Positions 15,229-25,410 of a DNA stretch of 64,000 nucleotides are shown piece by piece; within the stretch, counting starts at the first letter, position 1; every line of letters starts with the position of its first letter. Under the pieces are notes generated by a model. That model did no database searches. It was not told the origin of the DNA and worked only from the letters and a program-made list of their open reading frames with translations. This DNA comes from a virus. Lineage: Duplodnaviria > Caudoviricetes. The position numbers and the translations under genes are program-made. The DNA lies in the IMG/VR virus record IMGVR_UViG_3300032075_000001, positions 11,382 through 75,381 of that record, one strand, 5' to 3'.

Positions 15229-15317
15229 TGCTGGCGGAAGGACTCGAACCTTCATCACGCCCTAATCCGGGGCTTACGGATTATAAGTCCGCCGCACTGC
15301 CATTGTGCTACGCCAGC
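15229..15317 (-). tRNA. tRNA with UAU anticodon (Ile) and a long variable arm
   Basis: Cloverleaf: acceptor GCTGGCG/CGCCAGC, D stem GCAC/GTGC, anticodon stem GCGGA/TCCGT with loop CT-TAT-AA, 22-nt variable arm with GCCC/GGGC stem, T arm GAAGG-TTCGAGT-CCTTC, A73; CCA not encoded. Confidence 0.85.
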
Positions 15318-19638: not shown

Positions 19639-20313
19639 ATGGACAACGCACTAGACCGCGACACTGCTGGTAGTATTGCTCACAACGCAAGTGCTATCGT
19701 TAAACTGCAAGGTGAGATTGCCAATGCTGCTGATCTGATCAGGGTGTTGGATTCACTACCGCTAGGCGAGGCAACTATAACGGTTTCTACTTTCGTTCGA
19801 CAGGAACCTTACTCTTGCGCCATTTCAAACGCCTCGGCGATTTGCTTACTACGCGAGTCGATTGAGATGAAGCAGCAATACATTAAGACTCTCAGTGACT
19901 GGCTGCGATCTGCGTTGAACGAATAGCAGCGCACATACCCGTCAAGTTCTATTGTATACTGCGCGACGATGGACACCGTTCCTGAATATCCCTTCGACCT
20001 TTTGTCGAGAATCCGTGAGCGAATCGTTAAAGACGTTGACGCGAATGGTAGAACTTATCGCTGCTCGTCTGAACTTTCAACCGCGTTTGCCGGATGGAGC
20101 CACGAGCAGATTGATGAATGGGCCATTGAGCACGGTTTGGTAATCATCGCTCAACCCGATCGTCGAATTGTAATCATGCGCGTTACGCCGGATAGCTTAG
20201 CGCCGTTGATAGCCATCGTCGGGAAAACTGAGGCGCTTGAGCTTCAACAGTTTGCGCGTGAGCGCGTACGTGCAGAAGTAGACGCGATGGACTGGTCGGA
20301 CATTATCGAATGA
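19639..20313 (+). other. Two hypothetical genes (19639-19926 and 19969-20313) preceding TerL
   Basis: GGAGG RBS before 19639; 20313 overlaps the TerL start. Confidence 0.6.
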
Positions 20314-22709
20314 GCGACGATCTCAATCTCCCACCATCCCTCCGTCTCAAGCACCTCTGGCCCATCGAGGACAAGCTGGAGGATGCGCGGCGACAGCGAC
20401 TCAAGGGCGGCGGGTTGATTCGTCCCGCTCTTCACGAAGCGCAGAAGAAGATGAAAGCTGAAGCGCGCAGGTTCAATGTTGCTGCGTTAGGCCGACGCGC
20501 GGGTAAGTCAGTATTCGGTCAGGATGTCAGTGGCGACTATCTCATGGCGGGTTGGCCTGTCGGGTGGTTCGCACCCTCATACAAGATTCTCGCAGATAGC
20601 TGGCGCGACTTACAACGAGTGTTCGCTCCAGTGACAGTGGACAAATCCACGCAGGAGCATCGACTGGAACTCTCGACGAAAGGGGTGCTGGAGTGCTGGT
20701 CGCTGGACAATCCCGACGCAGGTAGAAGTCGCAAGTACAAGCTGGTGATCGTTGACGAAGCAGCCCTCGTGCGTTATCTGGGAGATGCATGGCAAGCGTC
20801 AATTCGACCCACTCTCACTGACTATCAAGGTGATGCGTGGTTCCTCTCCACTCCACGTGGCTCGAACTTTTTCCGCACGATCTACAACTGGGGACAAGAT
20901 CCACTCAAAGACGAATGGCGCTCGTGGCAGATGCCGTCGTCGGTCAATACTACCCTCACCGATCTCGACAAAGAGATCGAAGCGGCGCGATTGGAACTGC
21001 CGGAGCGCATCTTTCGACAAGAGTATCTGGCTGAGTTCATCGACGACGCGGGTGGAGTGTTTAGACGAGTGCTCGAATCAGCTTGTGCCACTGCTCAAGA
21101 CTCAGCCCTCGATGGACATAACTACCTGATCGGAATCGACTGGGGCAAGTATAACGATTTCACGGTGCTGAGTGTAATTGACGTGACGACGAAGGAGTTG
21201 GTCTACGTGGATCGCTTCAATCAGATCGACTACACCGTGCAGATTGAGAGGTTGCGCACGCTCGCCACGAAGTTTAAGACGAAGACTCTCATCCCTGAGC
21301 ACAACTCCATCGGCATTCCGCTGATTGAGCAACTCCAGCGTGAAGGCTACAACGTCCACCCATTTACGACCACGAATGCGTCTAAAGCTGAAGCGATAGA
21401 CTCGCTCGCGCTTGCGTTGGAGAAAGGCGATTTGCGCATAATTGATAACCCAGTACTGATTGCTGAATTGCAAGCCTATGAAGCTGAGAGATTGCCGAGT
21501 GGGATGCTGAGATATTCGAGCCCGGAAGGTTATCACGATGACTGTTTGCCGCAGGGAACGCTGATTAAAACATTGACTGGCTATCGTCCAATTGAAGAAG
21601 TCCAACCCGGTGATCAGGTGCTTACTCATCGCGGTCGCTATATGCCCGTAGAGAGGGCGATTACCAAGCCCTTCTCGGGCCTGTTTTATGATTGTAAATT
21701 TAGAAATCAGCTAGAACTGTCGCTGAGCCACAATCACCCAATATTGGCTGTCTGCCGCGACTACACCGGCGATGTCTCTGGTCCATTTACACGCGAGCAG
21801 TGGGTATTACCGGGCGACTGGCGTAAATCTTACCGTGCGGTAACGGTAGTTGAATCTCCAGTACTGCGTGTTGGCGATGTACTGACAGAACGTGAGTTTT
21901 ACACCAATGGGAAATGCGCGGTGAATATCAAGTTGCGAGAACTGCAACTTGATGAAGGATTTGCAAGCTTGCTCGGGCGCTTTCTTGCCGATGGTCACTG
22001 TTCCAATTCTTCGGGCTGGACCATGAGCCTCGCATTTAACGTTAAAGATGTGCATTCGATTGAGTACTTTCGCTACTATCTCAACTTGCTGAGAATTTCT
22101 AATAGAGCGGAGAAGGCGCGAAGTAACTGCGTGGCCTTAACGTTTTCCAGTAAGCTATTATGGCATGCCCTGAAGACCTGTTATTCATCCTCCGGCGAGA
22201 AACAGCTCCCGCCTTACTTTCACCGTTTACAAGTTCACGGTAAAACAGTGGTAGATGAATGGTTGGCTGGCGATGGTTGGCACCGTCCTCCACACGTAAC
22301 GCAACCGAACGGCGTTACGGTTCAGTCTCCCGGCTACACGATAGGTGCGACCACAAGTGCGCGACTGGCTTTAGGAATGCGAGATCTAGCTCTCGCAAAT
22401 GGGCTATACGCAACGGTAAGAAAATATGAGCGGCGGCGTTACGAAAAGTCTACTAAGCCTCAATATTGGGTTACGATAAAAGAAGACGGTTCCGAGAATA
22501 ATCATTCCCGAAAGCTCTCTCCGGTTAGTTACGGCTCTCCCGTGGAGACTATTGCCGAACGGCAATTTGAAGGCACGGTCTATAATCTTCAAGTTGCCGA
22601 AGATAGATCATTTATAGCGAATGGCATCGTGGTCCATAATTGCGTCATCAGCCTCGCCCTCGCATGGCACGGAGCCAGCATCAGGCCGAGACGGGTGCTG
22701 TATGCGTAG
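20310..22709 (+). CDS. terL: Terminase large subunit, intein-containing
   Basis: GRRAGKS Walker A, LVIVDEAA Walker B, STPRGSNFF, IGIDWGKYNDFTV and GYHDD|CVISLALAW nuclease motifs. Confidence 0.95.
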   Translation: MSDDLNLPPSLRLKHLWPIEDKLEDARRQRLKGGGLIRPALHEAQKKMKAEARRFNVAALGRRAGKSVFGQDVSGDYLMAGWPVGWFAPSYKILADSWRDLQRVFAPVTVDKSTQEHRLELSTKGVLECWSLDNPDAGRSRKYKLVIVDEAALVRYLGDAWQASIRPTLTDYQGDAWFLSTPRGSNFFRTIYNWGQDPLKDEWRSWQMPSSVNTTLTDLDKEIEAARLELPERIFRQEYLAEFIDDAGGVFRRVLESACATAQDSALDGHNYLIGIDWGKYNDFTVLSVIDVTTKELVYVDRFNQIDYTVQIERLRTLATKFKTKTLIPEHNSIGIPLIEQLQREGYNVHPFTTTNASKAEAIDSLALALEKGDLRIIDNPVLIAELQAYEAERLPSGMLRYSSPEGYHDDCLPQGTLIKTLTGYRPIEEVQPGDQVLTHRGRYMPVERAITKPFSGLFYDCKFRNQLELSLSHNHPILAVCRDYTGDVSGPFTREQWVLPGDWRKSYRAVTVVESPVLRVGDVLTEREFYTNGKCAVNIKLRELQLDEGFASLLGRFLADGHCSNSSGWTMSLAFNVKDVHSIEYFRYYLNLLRISNRAEKARSNCVALTFSSKLLWHALKTCYSSSGEKQLPPYFHRLQVHGKTVVDEWLAGDGWHRPPHVTQPNGVTVQSPGYTIGATTSARLALGMRDLALANGLYATVRKYERRRYEKSTKPQYWVTIKEDGSENNHSRKLSPVSYGSPVETIAERQFEGTVYNLQVAEDRSFIANGIVVHNCVISLALAWHGASIRPRRVLYA
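21543..22640 (+). mobile_element. Intein (366 aa) with a LAGLIDADG homing endonuclease
   Basis: Starts CLPQGTLIKT..GYRPIEEVQPGDQVLTHRG; LLGRFLADG and EWLAGDGW motifs; ends VYNLQVAEDRSFIANGIVVHN followed by Cys(+1). Confidence 0.95.
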
Positions 22710-24080: not shown

Positions 24081-24109
24081 TTGACAAGATGTTGTGCACA
24101 GTGTATTGT
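24081..24109 (+). promoter_or_regulatory. Sigma70-like promoter with an operator
   Basis: TTGACA 24081-24086, 17-nt spacer, TATTGT 24104-24109; ACAAGATGTTGT at 24084-24095. Confidence 0.75.
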
Positions 24110-24142
24110 TCCTTTTCTAAATCTTAATCGTTGGAGAAGGAA

Positions 24143-24874
24143 ATGCCAAAACTACATCAAATCATCGCTATCGAAGAAGACGCGAAGAACAAGATAGGAT
24201 CTGTCACCGCAATGCTGGAACGGGAAGCGTTAAAGCCCGATTCGTTTAACGGACTAGCTCGCACGTATCGACCAAAGGACGAAGGCGGTGAACCGCTACC
24301 TCCTGAACATAAGCGAGTACAGTTAGACGCGCGTAAAGAAATTGACAAGTTCATCAAAGCCAAGACTGAATTGATCGACCTGACTGCGACGAAGGACTGG
24401 GCCAACATGGAAGCGCGGGCCGATGTGGAAGTTAACGGTCAGGTGATTCTTATAGCGGTACCTGTTACTCATTTGCTATTCCTAAGCAAGCAGTTGGACC
24501 ACTTTCGTAACTACGTCGAGAAACTGCCTACGTTGGACGAATCCGAGGAGTGGAAAGTAGACCCATCAACCGGACAGTGGCGTACGGATATTACAACTCG
24601 CCACCGTACCGAGAAGATAGTTGACTTTAAGACTGTCTCAGAAGCGACGAAGGAACACCCGGCTCAGGTGGCCCAACTAACTAAAGACGTAACAGTCGGC
24701 TACTGGGACCAGACTAAGCTGTCGGCGGCGCTTCCCGTGCCGCAGAAAGAGGAACTGATTACGAAGATTGAGGAACTGCTTAGCGCGGTCAAGTTAGCAC
24801 GCGGCAAGGCCAACGAGGTCGAAGCTCCGAGGCAAAAGATCGCTGACACGTTATTTGAATACGTGTTAGGCTAG
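24143..24874 (+). CDS. Uncharacterised 243-aa protein, recalled as the DUF7873-type family
   Basis: GGAGAAGG RBS then ATG 24143; MPKLHQIIAIE, RTYRPKDEGGEPLPPE, TATKDWAN..ARADV, LLFLSKQL, EATKEHPAQV and KLARGKAN match my recollection of a widespread bacterial and phage family. The family name needs HMM confirmation. Confidence 0.75.
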   Translation: MPKLHQIIAIEEDAKNKIGSVTAMLEREALKPDSFNGLARTYRPKDEGGEPLPPEHKRVQLDARKEIDKFIKAKTELIDLTATKDWANMEARADVEVNGQVILIAVPVTHLLFLSKQLDHFRNYVEKLPTLDESEEWKVDPSTGQWRTDITTRHRTEKIVDFKTVSEATKEHPAQVAQLTKDVTVGYWDQTKLSAALPVPQKEELITKIEELLSAVKLARGKANEVEAPRQKIADTLFEYVLG

Positions 24875-24986
24875 CGAGTGTGGAAGTTTTAATCTGAGGC
24901 TTAGGCTGAACATGAGAATCAACCTATTCCACAGAATCTTAAACCGATCACTATCTGAATGAAGGTAAGCTAAAGCAAAACTAACA

Positions 24987-25066
24987 GTCCTATGCGTGGG
25001 TTCGATTCCCACCGGACGCTCCAAATATTACTTATGCGTCCGTAGTTCAGCGGTAGAACATGGGAC
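24987..25066 (+). ncRNA. Circularly permuted tRNA-like element (Gly-type acceptor, no anticodon loop)
   Basis: 3' half: GTCCTA-TGC-GTGGG-TTCGATT-CCCAC-CGGACGC-T-CCA (24987-25023); 12-nt AT linker; 5' half: GCGTCCG-TA-GTTC-AGCGGTA-GAAC-A-TGGGAC (25036-25066). The acceptor has 7 Watson-Crick pairs, and the D, T and anticodon stems all pair. Confidence 0.85.
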
Positions 25067-25117
25067 ATTGAAACTTAGCGCAATGGCAAGCCGGACACGG
25101 ATATAGATGATCAAAAC

Positions 25118-25190
25118 CGCGACATAGCTCAACTGGCAGAGCGCAAGACTTATAATCTTGAGGTCGCAGGTTCGACTCCTGCTATCGCAA
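25118..25190 (+). tRNA. tRNA-Ile(UAU), class I
   Basis: D stem GCTC/GAGC, anticodon stem CAAGA/TCTTG with loop CT-TAT-AA, variable loop AGGTC, T arm GCAGG-TTCGACT-CCTGC; acceptor CGCGACA/TATCGCA has two C-A mismatches; CCA not encoded. Confidence 0.8.
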
Positions 25191-25198
25191 ACTCAATG

Positions 25199-25238
25199 GG
25201 GCGGGTGGCTAGGGTAAGCTGCTCGCCCTGTAATCTTC
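25199..25238 (+). terminator. GC-rich hairpin, probable terminator
   Basis: GGGCGGGTGGCT/AGCTGCTCGCCC 12-bp stem (with GU pairs) followed by TGTAATCTTC. Confidence 0.5.
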
Positions 25239-25243
25239 TCGGG

Positions 25244-25273
25244 TTGACAATATCTTGTGGAACGGGCTATTCT
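25244..25273 (+). promoter_or_regulatory. Sigma70-like promoter with an operator
   Basis: TTGACA 25244-25249, 18-nt spacer, TATTCT 25268-25273; ACAATATCTTGT at 25247-25258. Confidence 0.65.
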
Positions 25274-25276
25274 AAT

Positions 25277-25382
25277 CCCCGTCTCGCTGCTGTGTGCAAA
25301 GAGGAAGACGCCGCCTGCCAGTCAGGTGCTCCGTAAAACGGAACTAAGGGATCGCGGTTCGAGTCCGCGTCGGCGGGACACC
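25277..25382 (+). ncRNA. Degenerate tRNA-like RNA
   Basis: T arm CGCGG-TTCGAGT-CCGCG (25353-25369), hairpins CGCCT/AGGTG and TCCGT/ACGGA, partial acceptor CCCGTC/GGCGGG; no canonical D arm. Confidence 0.4.
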
Positions 25383-25410
25383 TAACAACGATTAAAATGG
25401 AGCGACGACG

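What the first reader, a model, noticed from the sequence alone, without database searches (positions are those of the whole stretch)
24882..25115. Adenine every sixth base on both arms of the permuted tRNA
Seen in sequence: four tracts with A at hexamer position 4. GGAAGT-TTTAAT-CTGAGG-CTTAGG-CTGAAC-ATGAGA-ATCAAC (24882-24923, 7 units). CAGAAT-CTTAAA-CCGATC-ACTATC-TGAATG (24932-24961, 5 units). ATGAAG-GTAAGC-TAAAGC-AAAACT-AACAGT-CCTATG (24959-24994, 6 units). TTGAAA-CTTAGC-GCAATG-GCAAGC-CGGACA-CGGATA-TAGATG-ATCAAA (25068-25115, 8 units). The register shifts between tracts and in-frame stops occur, so this is not one ORF. Established: Cas7 backbones and paramyxovirus nucleocapsids bind 6 nt per subunit. 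Inference: the upstream protein may polymerise along these single-stranded arms at one subunit per hexamer, leaving five variable positions that could act as guide or decoy sequence. An alternative is a non-canonically read message for alternating polar/apolar peptides (NLRLRLNMRIN, LKLSAMASRTRI).
Basis: partly seen in the sequence, partly recalled or inferred. Interest (0 to 1): 0.85.

Follow-up and report, generated by a model that had tools for sequence, protein, structure and literature searches.

The report
Hexamer-repeat helix in a tRNA-mimic RNA
The "A every sixth base" pattern is real and conserved. It marks tandem six-letter repeats that pair with each other to build the stems of an undescribed phage and bacterial RNA carrying a back-to-front tRNA look-alike, always next to one unknown protein (DUF7873).

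Summary
Runs of 9, 7, 6 and 5 A at 6-nt spacing lie at 24882-25115, and 0 of 20,000 dinucleotide shuffles reach this.

The unit is a hexamer, A-R-N-Y-U-N; U is as periodic as A. Across 79 distinct homologous RNAs this motif recurs at exactly 6 nt 176 times, against 8 in shuffles. Arrays of 4 or more units number 81, against 13.

The region is not single-stranded arms. It is a one-headed form of the DUF7873-associated tRNA-mimic RNA. Tract 1 is a hexamer-repeat hairpin. Tracts 2-3 and tract 4 are opposite strands of a covarying closing stem under a permuted tRNA-like head with a 7-bp acceptor stem and an encoded UCCA.

The motif is self-complementary, so two arrays pair A1 to U5'. Hexamer pairs also sit just 5' of the DUF7873 ribosome-binding site (24 against 1.4 expected). 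This suggests, but does not show, that the protein reads the repeats.

The guide/decoy and coded-peptide readings are not supported, and no Cas7 fold match held up.

The RNA is absent from Rfam 15 and from the papers I could search. This scan has already noted the same RNA-protein pair on other DNA many times.

The parts
24081..24109 (+). Promoter-like site (TTGACA, 17 nt, TATTGT) in front of the DUF7873 gene
   Evidence: Consensus scan, 10 of 12 matches. This is a pattern match only.
24120..24131 (+). Two hexamers (AATCTT AATCGT, the second degenerate at position 5) directly 5' of the Shine-Dalgarno GGAG at 24133-24136
   Evidence: Read. Family-wide, 24 spacing-6 motif pairs lie in the 60 nt before the start codon of 77 loci, against 1.4 in shuffles (maximum 6).
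24143..24874 (+). DUF7873 protein gene. The ATG at 24143 gives the 243-aa form MPKL...; the ORF listing starts it at the TTG at 24131.
   Evidence: Pfam PF25283, E 7e-87, 291.7 bits against a cut-off of 27. 2,496 homologues at E<1e-5.
24885..24935 (+). Hexamer-repeat hairpin (tract 1 plus the start of tract 2). The A-R-N-Y-U-N units start at 24885. 5' strand 24893-24909, 9-nt loop 24910-24918, 3' strand 24919-24935.
   Evidence: Array of 7 units. RNAalifold consensus helix of 13 pairs, 96.7% paired, invariant in 7 sequences and so without covariation in this clade. The homologous array-linker pairing covaries in two other subfamilies.
24946..24991 (+). 5' strand of the long interrupted closing stem (tracts 2-3): 24946-51, 24955-57, 24965-71, 24975-76, 24985-91
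   Evidence: It pairs with 25107-12, 25098-100, 25085-91, 25080-81 and 25062-70. Helices 2-4 and 6 show compensatory changes.
24996..25059 (+). Circularly permuted tRNA-like head: T arm 24996-25012, acceptor 3' strand 25013-19, U73-CCA 25020-23, 12-nt loop 25024-35, acceptor 5' strand 25036-42, D arm 25045-59
   Evidence: Read. Full-length but sub-threshold YrlA match at 24966-25085, 34.3 bits, E 2e-5. T, acceptor and D stems are 100% paired, with 3, 5 and 1 pairs changed on both sides.
25062..25112 (+). 3' strand of the closing stem (tract 4)
   Evidence: Periodic A at 25083 and 25101 are G in all four relatives aligned in A1.
25118..25190 (+). tRNA-Ile(UAU) directly abutting the RNA. Its 5' processing would set the RNA's 3' end.
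   Evidence: ARAGORN and Rfam, 66.4 bits. All seven clade members have a tRNA in this slot.
25196..25231 (+). 15-bp terminal hairpin with loop AGGGUA, the probable end of the transcription unit. The next promoter-like site starts at 25244.
   Evidence: MFE fold and promoter scan. The strict terminator scan did not call it. Similar hairpins end the RNA in relatives.

Best explanation
The region is a structured non-coding RNA transcribed with the DUF7873 gene. It is the one-headed form of a widespread RNA that usually carries two circularly permuted, anticodon-less tRNA look-alikes.

The periodic A is position 1 of a tandem hexamer, A-R-N-Y-U-N. Because A-R-N-Y-U is its own reverse complement, two arrays pair antiparallel in the register A1:U5', R2:Y4', N6:N6'. 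This gives a helix of two-fold symmetric 5-bp blocks, with N3 facing N3' and often mismatched.

In two-headed relatives the 5' array pairs with the linker and closes head 1. In this phage head 1 is missing, and the array folds back as a hairpin capped by 9 nt. Tracts 2-3 and tract 4 are the two strands of the interrupted stem that closes the remaining head, which has a 7-bp acceptor stem and an encoded U73-CCA.

Shown: the repeats, their conservation, the pairings and the gene-RNA linkage.

Inferred: the repeat helix is the docking platform for DUF7873, which would also bind the two hexamers at its own ribosome-binding site and so limit its own translation. Also inferred: RNase P and 3' trimming open the head at 25036 and 25023, as in M. 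smegmatis YrlA.
For: - Periodicity: 0 of 20,000 shuffles reach the observed value.
- Family-wide hexamers: spacing of exactly 6 occurs 176 times, against 8 in shuffles, 8 in the coding sequence and 20 in far flanks.
- Arrays of 4 or more units number 81, against 12.9 in shuffles (maximum 18); 61 of them lie in the 5' arm. Position weights are A .93, R .96, Y .91, U .80.
- Gene-RNA linkage: 80 of 88 DUF7873 loci (the window included) have at least one permuted module within 700 nt downstream on the same strand, and 52 have two. Bacterial chromosomal copies are a stand-alone gene followed by a gap.
- Window-clade structure: 97.3% of cells paired, and 21 pairs changed on both sides. Slid controls give 30-42% and 3-5 pairs.
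- Array-linker pairing in subfamily A: 82.4% paired against 36-50% slid. N6:N6' shows GC 4, AU 3, CG 1. The periodic A at columns 20, 32 and 38 pair with U in 28 of 30 cells. The Racecar subfamily shows the same pairing.
- 5' arm by linker duplex energy has mean z of -1.9 in 46 loci; 5' arm by 3' arm gives 0.0.
- Single-headed loci mostly carry the U-CCA tail typical of head 2.
- Hexamers at the ribosome-binding site: 24 pairs against 1.4 expected.
Against: - The hairpin of tract 1 is invariant in the seven clade sequences, so its pairing rests on homology with other subfamilies, not on covariation here.
- An alternative fold (GTGGAA/TTCCAC plus TAGGCTGA/TCAACCTA with a 16-nt bulge) and a 10-bp pairing of 24884-93 with 25067-76 are not excluded. 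I found both by eye and did not test them against the alignment.
- The whole-region MFE fold is not exceptional (z -1.6).
- There are no data on transcripts, RNA ends or protein binding.
- The hexamers at the ribosome-binding site could act through RNA-RNA pairing with the array rather than through the protein.
- The window's own second hexamer at the ribosome-binding site is degenerate.
- The loci are related to each other, so the family counts are not independent events.
Confidence: 0.6

Rival explanations
1. The repeats are purely an RNA-level building principle. Slippage-generated, self-complementary hexamers make stems whose length is easy to change, and no protein reads them unit by unit. 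DUF7873 would bind elsewhere, for example the tRNA-like head, or not at all.
For: The motif is its own reverse complement, and the arrays pair with each other. The number of units varies from 4 to 7. Spacings of 5 and 7 occur. There are no binding data.
Against: A helix alone needs no fixed A, R, Y and U at four of six positions across phyla. The same hexamers recur at the gene's ribosome-binding site, away from any array partner. That could still be RNA-RNA pairing.
Confidence: 0.25
2. One reading: DUF7873 polymerises along single-stranded arms, one subunit per six nucleotides as Cas7 or a paramyxovirus nucleocapsid does, and leaves five variable bases per unit as guide or decoy.
For: The periodicity is real and conserved. 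The weak top Foldseek rows are Cas7 chains (E 5e-3, TM 0.12-0.16).
Against: The arms are paired, with covariation. Four of six positions are fixed, and tract 1 is nearly invariant in the clade, so there is no variable guide. No Cas7 chain is among the 50 rows listed in the second-look alignment (lowest listed Z 2.8). The wide search gives only generic helical matches with Z up to 8.6.
Confidence: 0.08
3. The hexamers are read as codons, either as a small ORF or as a tmRNA-like tag, giving alternating basic and hydrophobic residues (NLRLRLNMRIN...).
For: ARN-YUN translates to (K/R/N/S)(L/F) in every relative. The head is permuted like a two-piece tmRNA and ends in CCA.
Against: - The peptide pattern follows from the code for any ARN-YUN repeat.
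- Spacings of 5 nt (35 cases) and 7 nt (11 cases) break the frame (examples L029 and L087).
- There is no consistent start, resume or stop codon. In L018 and L022 the frame runs into the T arm.
- Positions covary with a partner strand.
- The same hexamers lie upstream of a ribosome-binding site.
- The acceptor stem has G3-C70, not G3:U70.
- ARAGORN finds no tmRNA. The Rfam permuted-tmRNA match scores 16.2 bits against a threshold of 47.
Confidence: 0.03

Closest known systems
YrlA-class bacterial and phage Y RNAs with Ro60/Rsr (Rfam RF02553; Chen et al. 2014, PMC4201824)
   Same: A long stem formed by the RNA's two ends carries a tRNA-like module in the order T arm, acceptor stem, D arm. The 7-bp acceptor stem with CCA matches M. 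smegmatis YrlA, which RNase P cleaves. Two such RNAs in tandem are common. The Rfam model aligns end to end.
   Different: The score is half the gathering threshold. The Ro60-binding motif GNCGAAN0-1G is absent here and not enriched in the family. The 75-kb phage has no TROVE/Ro60 gene, and none of the called genes within 6 kb of the three chromosomal copies carries one. The constant neighbour is DUF7873. Hexamer-repeat helices are not a described YrlA feature.
Two-piece (circularly permuted) tmRNA
   Same: Permuted gene order, with the T arm and 3' acceptor strand with CCA upstream of the 5' acceptor strand. Probable processing into a nicked tRNA-like domain.
   Different: A true D stem is present. 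The acceptor has G3-C70 rather than G3:U70. There is no pseudoknot or tag frame with a stop. Rfam and ARAGORN do not call it.
TRAP binding to (G/U)AG repeats spaced 2-3 nt apart, and r-protein or ThrRS autoregulation by mimicry of the RNA site in the mRNA leader (from my own knowledge)
   Same: This is what it may work like: a short motif repeated every 5-6 nt is read by repeated protein units, and a copy of the site at the protein's own ribosome-binding site gives feedback.
   Different: TRAP reads single-stranded RNA, and its fold (PF02081) is unrelated. Here the repeats are paired. Neither binding nor feedback has been shown.
Cas7 backbone on crRNA (6-nt periodicity)
   Same: A six-nucleotide repeat length. 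In the repeat helix every sixth position (N3) tends to be unpaired between 5-bp blocks.
   Different: crRNA guides have no sequence periodicity. No CRISPR repeat or cas gene turned up in the Rfam scan of the window or among the neighbouring ORFs I screened. Fold support is absent.

Membership tests
YrlA (Rfam RF02553) | Covariance-model score at or above the gathering threshold (69 bits) | tested here: not met
   34.3 bits, E 2e-5, model positions 1-114 of 114. Relatives score 38.1 and 32.9 bits.
YrlA (Rfam RF02553) | tRNA-like module (T arm, acceptor-like stem, D arm) closed by a stem made from the RNA's two ends | tested here: met
   All three stems are 100% paired, with compensatory changes.
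YrlA (Rfam RF02553) | Ro60-binding motif GNCGAAN0-1G in the 5' strand of the stem (PMC4201824) | tested here: not met
   No match in 24875-25240. The motif occurs in 22 of 85 family RNAs, about my own rough chance estimate for a 480-nt stretch.
YrlA (Rfam RF02553) | Encoded next to a Ro60/Rsr (TROVE) gene | tested here: not met
   No TROVE match in the complete 75,381-bp virus record, while the control genomes gave hits. No called gene within 6 kb of the three chromosomal copies carries one. The host genome is unknown.
Permuted tmRNA (Rfam RF04321, RF01849-51) | Model score at threshold; G3:U70 alanine identity pair; tag reading frame ending in a stop | tested here: not met
   16.2 bits against 47, covering only the T arm and acceptor stem. 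ARAGORN finds no tmRNA. The acceptor has G3-C70. No consistent frame.
DUF7873 (Pfam PF25283) | Whole-protein score above the curated cut-off (27 bits) | tested here: met
   291.7 bits, residues 5-246 on profile positions 1-242 of 244.
Cas7 (RAMP backbone) proteins | Shared fold (RRM palm with a thumb hairpin) | tested here: inconclusive
   Foldseek top rows are CasC chains at E 5e-3, TM 0.12-0.16, rmsd over 20 A. No Cas7 chain is among the 50 rows listed in the VIA second look or in the wide search.
DUF7873-associated tRNA-mimic RNA (unnamed; defined in this scan) | Lies directly downstream of DUF7873 on the same strand; one or two permuted tRNA-like heads; A-R-N-Y-U-N arrays in the 5' arm | tested here: met
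   Head at +121 nt from the stop codon. Seven-unit array. 80 of 88 loci (the window included) have at least one head.

The most novel reading that the evidence does not exclude
DUF7873 binds in repeating units, plausibly a dimer on each two-fold symmetric 5-bp block. One unit per hexamer would sit along a helix built from self-complementary repeats. This would give a ruler-like RNA-protein rod that displays one or two CCA-ended tRNA mimics, and the protein would repress its own translation through two hexamers at its ribosome-binding site. That would be a Ro60-independent tRNA-mimic particle with a previously unknown mode of periodic RNA recognition, shared by phages and bacteria of several phyla.
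Probability: 0.25. Interest if true: 0.8.

Novelty: new variant of a known kind. Interest (0 to 1): 0.6.

Why it matters
tRNA mimicry by Y RNAs is so far tied to Ro60. Here the same kind of RNA head sits on helices made of a strict six-letter repeat and travels with a different, uncharacterised protein. The pair occurs in the phage records searched here, often inside tRNA gene clusters, and in bacterial chromosomes. If the protein reads the repeats, this is a new way to assemble a protein on RNA at fixed spacing. It would also be a new player in the tRNA-centred conflicts between phages and hosts. The repeat also gives a simple sequence signature (ARNYUN four or more times, followed by a permuted T arm) for finding the RNA.

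Tried and rejected
- Close-relative search in IMG/VR with the single protein found nothing. The alignment-based search worked.
- The 19-mer pattern AATCTGAGNCTTAGNCTGA, scanned in the metagenome and viral collections, returned about 100 loci. None was a new clade member; most were unrelated coding DNA.
- Two contig look-ups returned no DNA.
- Fold searches gave no match at E below 1e-3 in Foldseek PDB and only generic helical rows in the VIA wide and second-look searches. The ESM Atlas gave only unnamed clusters. I therefore make no fold assignment.
- Literature: no paper mentions DUF7873 or PF25283, and none describes a phage permuted tRNA of this kind.
- Pairing GCTAA (24969-73) with TTAGC (25075-79): rejected, because the clade has C at the third position opposite an invariant A.
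- tRNA-Gly identity of the head (G1-C72, C2-G71, G3-C70, U73): the stem covaries freely in relatives and only U73-CCA is kept. A glycine identity is therefore not conserved.
- DNA-level iterons or operators: rejected, because the repeats covary as RNA pairs.

Full report
**What is there.** The window is part of a complete 75,381-bp viral record with direct terminal repeats. It carries a terminase with an intein and other phage genes. The finding lies between the stop codon of a 243-aa gene (24143-24874) and tRNA-Ile(UAU) at 25118-25190. The gene matches Pfam DUF7873 at E 7e-87. The "permuted tRNA" at 24996-25059 reads, in order:
- T arm;
- 3' acceptor strand;
- U-CCA;
- a 12-nt loop;
- 5' acceptor strand;
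- D arm.

Rfam gives no family at its threshold. The best match is a full-length YrlA (Y RNA-like) alignment at 34.3 bits against the 69 needed.

**The observation.** The four tracts are as written. Period-6 A runs of 9, 7, 6 and 5 stand out from all other periods. None of 20,000 dinucleotide shuffles reaches the summed run length. None of 3,000 shuffles does so for any base at any period from 2 to 12. In the real window only C in coding DNA matches it. T at unit position 5 is just as periodic in tract 1.

**Homologous loci.**
- DUF7873 has 2,496 relatives at E<1e-5. They occur in many phages: Arthrobacter, Gordonia, Rhodococcus, cyanophages, phiRSL1, Rhizobium, Vibrio and Klebsiella jumbo phages. 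They also occur in bacterial chromosomes.
- All twelve contexts I read in full (L001-L010, L087, L088) have a gene-free gap of 370-870 nt after the gene.
- A strict pattern search finds permuted tRNA-like modules on the same strand within 700 nt in 80 of 88 loci, the window included. Two tandem modules is the commonest form, in 52 loci.
- The window and its six nearest relatives have one module. Its U-CCA tail is the type seen in the second module of two-headed RNAs. I therefore read this clade as having lost head 1.

**The periodicity is a family hallmark.** The 5' arms of distant relatives carry 4-6 tandem hexamers. Examples are AATCTG AATCTC repeated five times in L079 and AAGTTC-type units in L035.

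| Measure over 79 distinct RNAs | Observed | Controls |
|---|---|---|
| Successive ARNYUN motifs exactly 6 nt apart | 176 | 8 in shuffles, 8 in the coding sequence, 20 in far flanks |
| Arrays of 4 or more units | 81 | 12.9 in shuffles (maximum 18) |

- 61 of the arrays lie in the 5' arm, in two-headed loci typically starting about 36-49 nt before the first T arm.
- Position weights are A .93, R .96, N, Y .91, U .80, N.
- Lag-6 A-A autocorrelation averages z = +1.05 in 73 loci outside the window's clade, and lag 3 is depleted.
- In the window's clade all seven periodic A of tract 1 are invariant. In tracts 2-4 the periodic A are no better conserved than their surroundings, and tract 4's run is broken in every relative. 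The stem strands still keep a weak lag-6 signal.

**The arms are paired.** The RNAalifold consensus of seven clade sequences gives three parts:
- a hairpin of the array on itself (24893-24909 with 24919-24935);
- a long interrupted stem joining 24946-24991 to 25062-25112;
- the T, acceptor and D stems.

Overall 97.3% of cells pair and 21 pairs changed on both sides. Slid controls give 30-42% paired and 3-5 such pairs. The structure was derived from the same alignment, which flatters it. The array hairpin itself never varies in this clade.

Independent support comes from two-headed subfamilies.
- In ten L018-type RNAs the 5' array pairs with the linker behind head 1, through GCUCAR/YUGAGC, CUUG/CAAG, GUGAA/UUCAC and CUGA/UCAG. 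Covariation is seen at N6:N6' (GC 4, AU 3, CG 1) and at 21/187 (GC 5, AU 3). The periodic A pair with U in 28 of 30 cells.
- The Racecar subfamily shows CUGAA/UUCAG pairing between array and linker.
- In 46 loci the 5' arm is more complementary to the linker than to shuffled linkers (mean z -1.9). It is not more complementary to the 3' arm (0.0).

The logic is simple. A-R-N-Y-U is its own reverse complement, so two arrays zip up in the register A1:U5'. This leaves 5-bp two-fold symmetric blocks, with N3 facing N3'. In most of the window's clade N3·N3' is an A·A mismatch.

**A hint of protein recognition.** Tandem hexamers also lie directly 5' of the DUF7873 Shine-Dalgarno sequence in 20 of 77 loci. 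That makes 24 spacing-6 pairs, against 1.4 in shuffles. The window has AATCTT AATCGT at 24120-24131, with the second unit degenerate. This resembles autoregulation of RNA-binding proteins through a copy of their RNA site. RNA-RNA pairing with the array could explain it equally well.

The AlphaFold model (pLDDT 85) has four long helices and long beta hairpins. It has no convincing structural relative. The weak Cas7 rows in Foldseek (TM 0.12-0.16) do not reappear among the rows listed by the second-look alignment.

**Rejected readings.**
- Guide or decoy: only positions 3 and 6 are free, and position 6 covaries with its partner.
- Coded peptide or tmRNA-like tag: the alternating K/R/N and L/F pattern follows from the code for any ARN-YUN repeat. 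Units of 5 nt (35 cases) and 7 nt (11 cases) break the frame. There is no consistent start or stop. The acceptor stem lacks G3:U70, and ARAGORN and Rfam do not call a tmRNA.
- YrlA membership fails on score, on the Ro60-binding motif and on the absence of a Ro60 gene. The architecture is nevertheless YrlA-like, including the 7-bp acceptor stem that makes M. smegmatis YrlA an RNase P substrate (PMC4201824).

**Transcription unit.** A promoter-like site at 24081-24109 is followed by the gene, the RNA, tRNA-Ile and a 15-bp hairpin at 25196-25231. The next promoter-like site is at 25244.

**Status.** I found the RNA in neither Rfam 15 nor any searchable paper. This scan has already noted the DUF7873-RNA pair, and its hexamers, many times on other DNA. 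One earlier follow-up read the repeats as two strands of one helix, which my tests support. Another called them single-stranded, which my tests do not support; its lead on the ribosome-binding site held up here.

Noticed in passing
window 25118-25190; L005 3993-4065; L006 3976-4048; L009 3182-3257; L010 1807-1879; L197 1839-1911; L198 1351-1423: All seven clade members have a tRNA gene directly after the RNA's 3' arm. Most begin with a similar 5' sequence (GCGACATAGCTCA and close variants), but the anticodons differ: UAU, AUU, UGA, GAA, CAU, UGU and UAU. The slot is conserved while the anticodon changes.
   Followed up: partly
window 25300-25385: Behind a second promoter-like site (25244-25273) lies another tRNA-like piece with a good T arm (CGCGG TTCGAGT CCGCG at 25353-25369). 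ARAGORN and Rfam do not call it a tRNA; the only match is a weak mascRNA-like one (17.5 bits).
   Followed up: partly
window 20310-22709: The large terminase gene (799 aa) contains Hint and intein-splicing domains, so it is an intein-interrupted TerL.
   Followed up: no
window 15229-15317 (minus strand): A second tRNA-Ile(UAU), 89 nt long with a long variable arm, which is unusual for an Ile tRNA.
   Followed up: no
window 25196-25231 and the equivalent ends in L001, L016, L022, L031, L064: The hairpin that ends the RNA unit has a recurring purine-rich loop (AGGGUA, UAGGCUA, CGGAUA, UAGGAUAG) in distant relatives. It may therefore be more than a terminator.
   Followed up: no
family RNAs, stop codon to +480 (79 loci): Besides spacing 6, the ARNYUN motif is strongly enriched at spacing 13 (63 against 8 in shuffles) and at spacing 14 (33). 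This probably reflects a conserved element in the linker (…AGAUUAUUCACNNCAAGYUGAGC…).
   Followed up: no
L003 (Pseudanabaena phage PA-SR01) 2735-3340: In this cyanophage the tRNA-like modules start about 600 nt after DUF7873. A small unannotated ORF-like stretch is inserted between the gene and the RNA.
   Followed up: no
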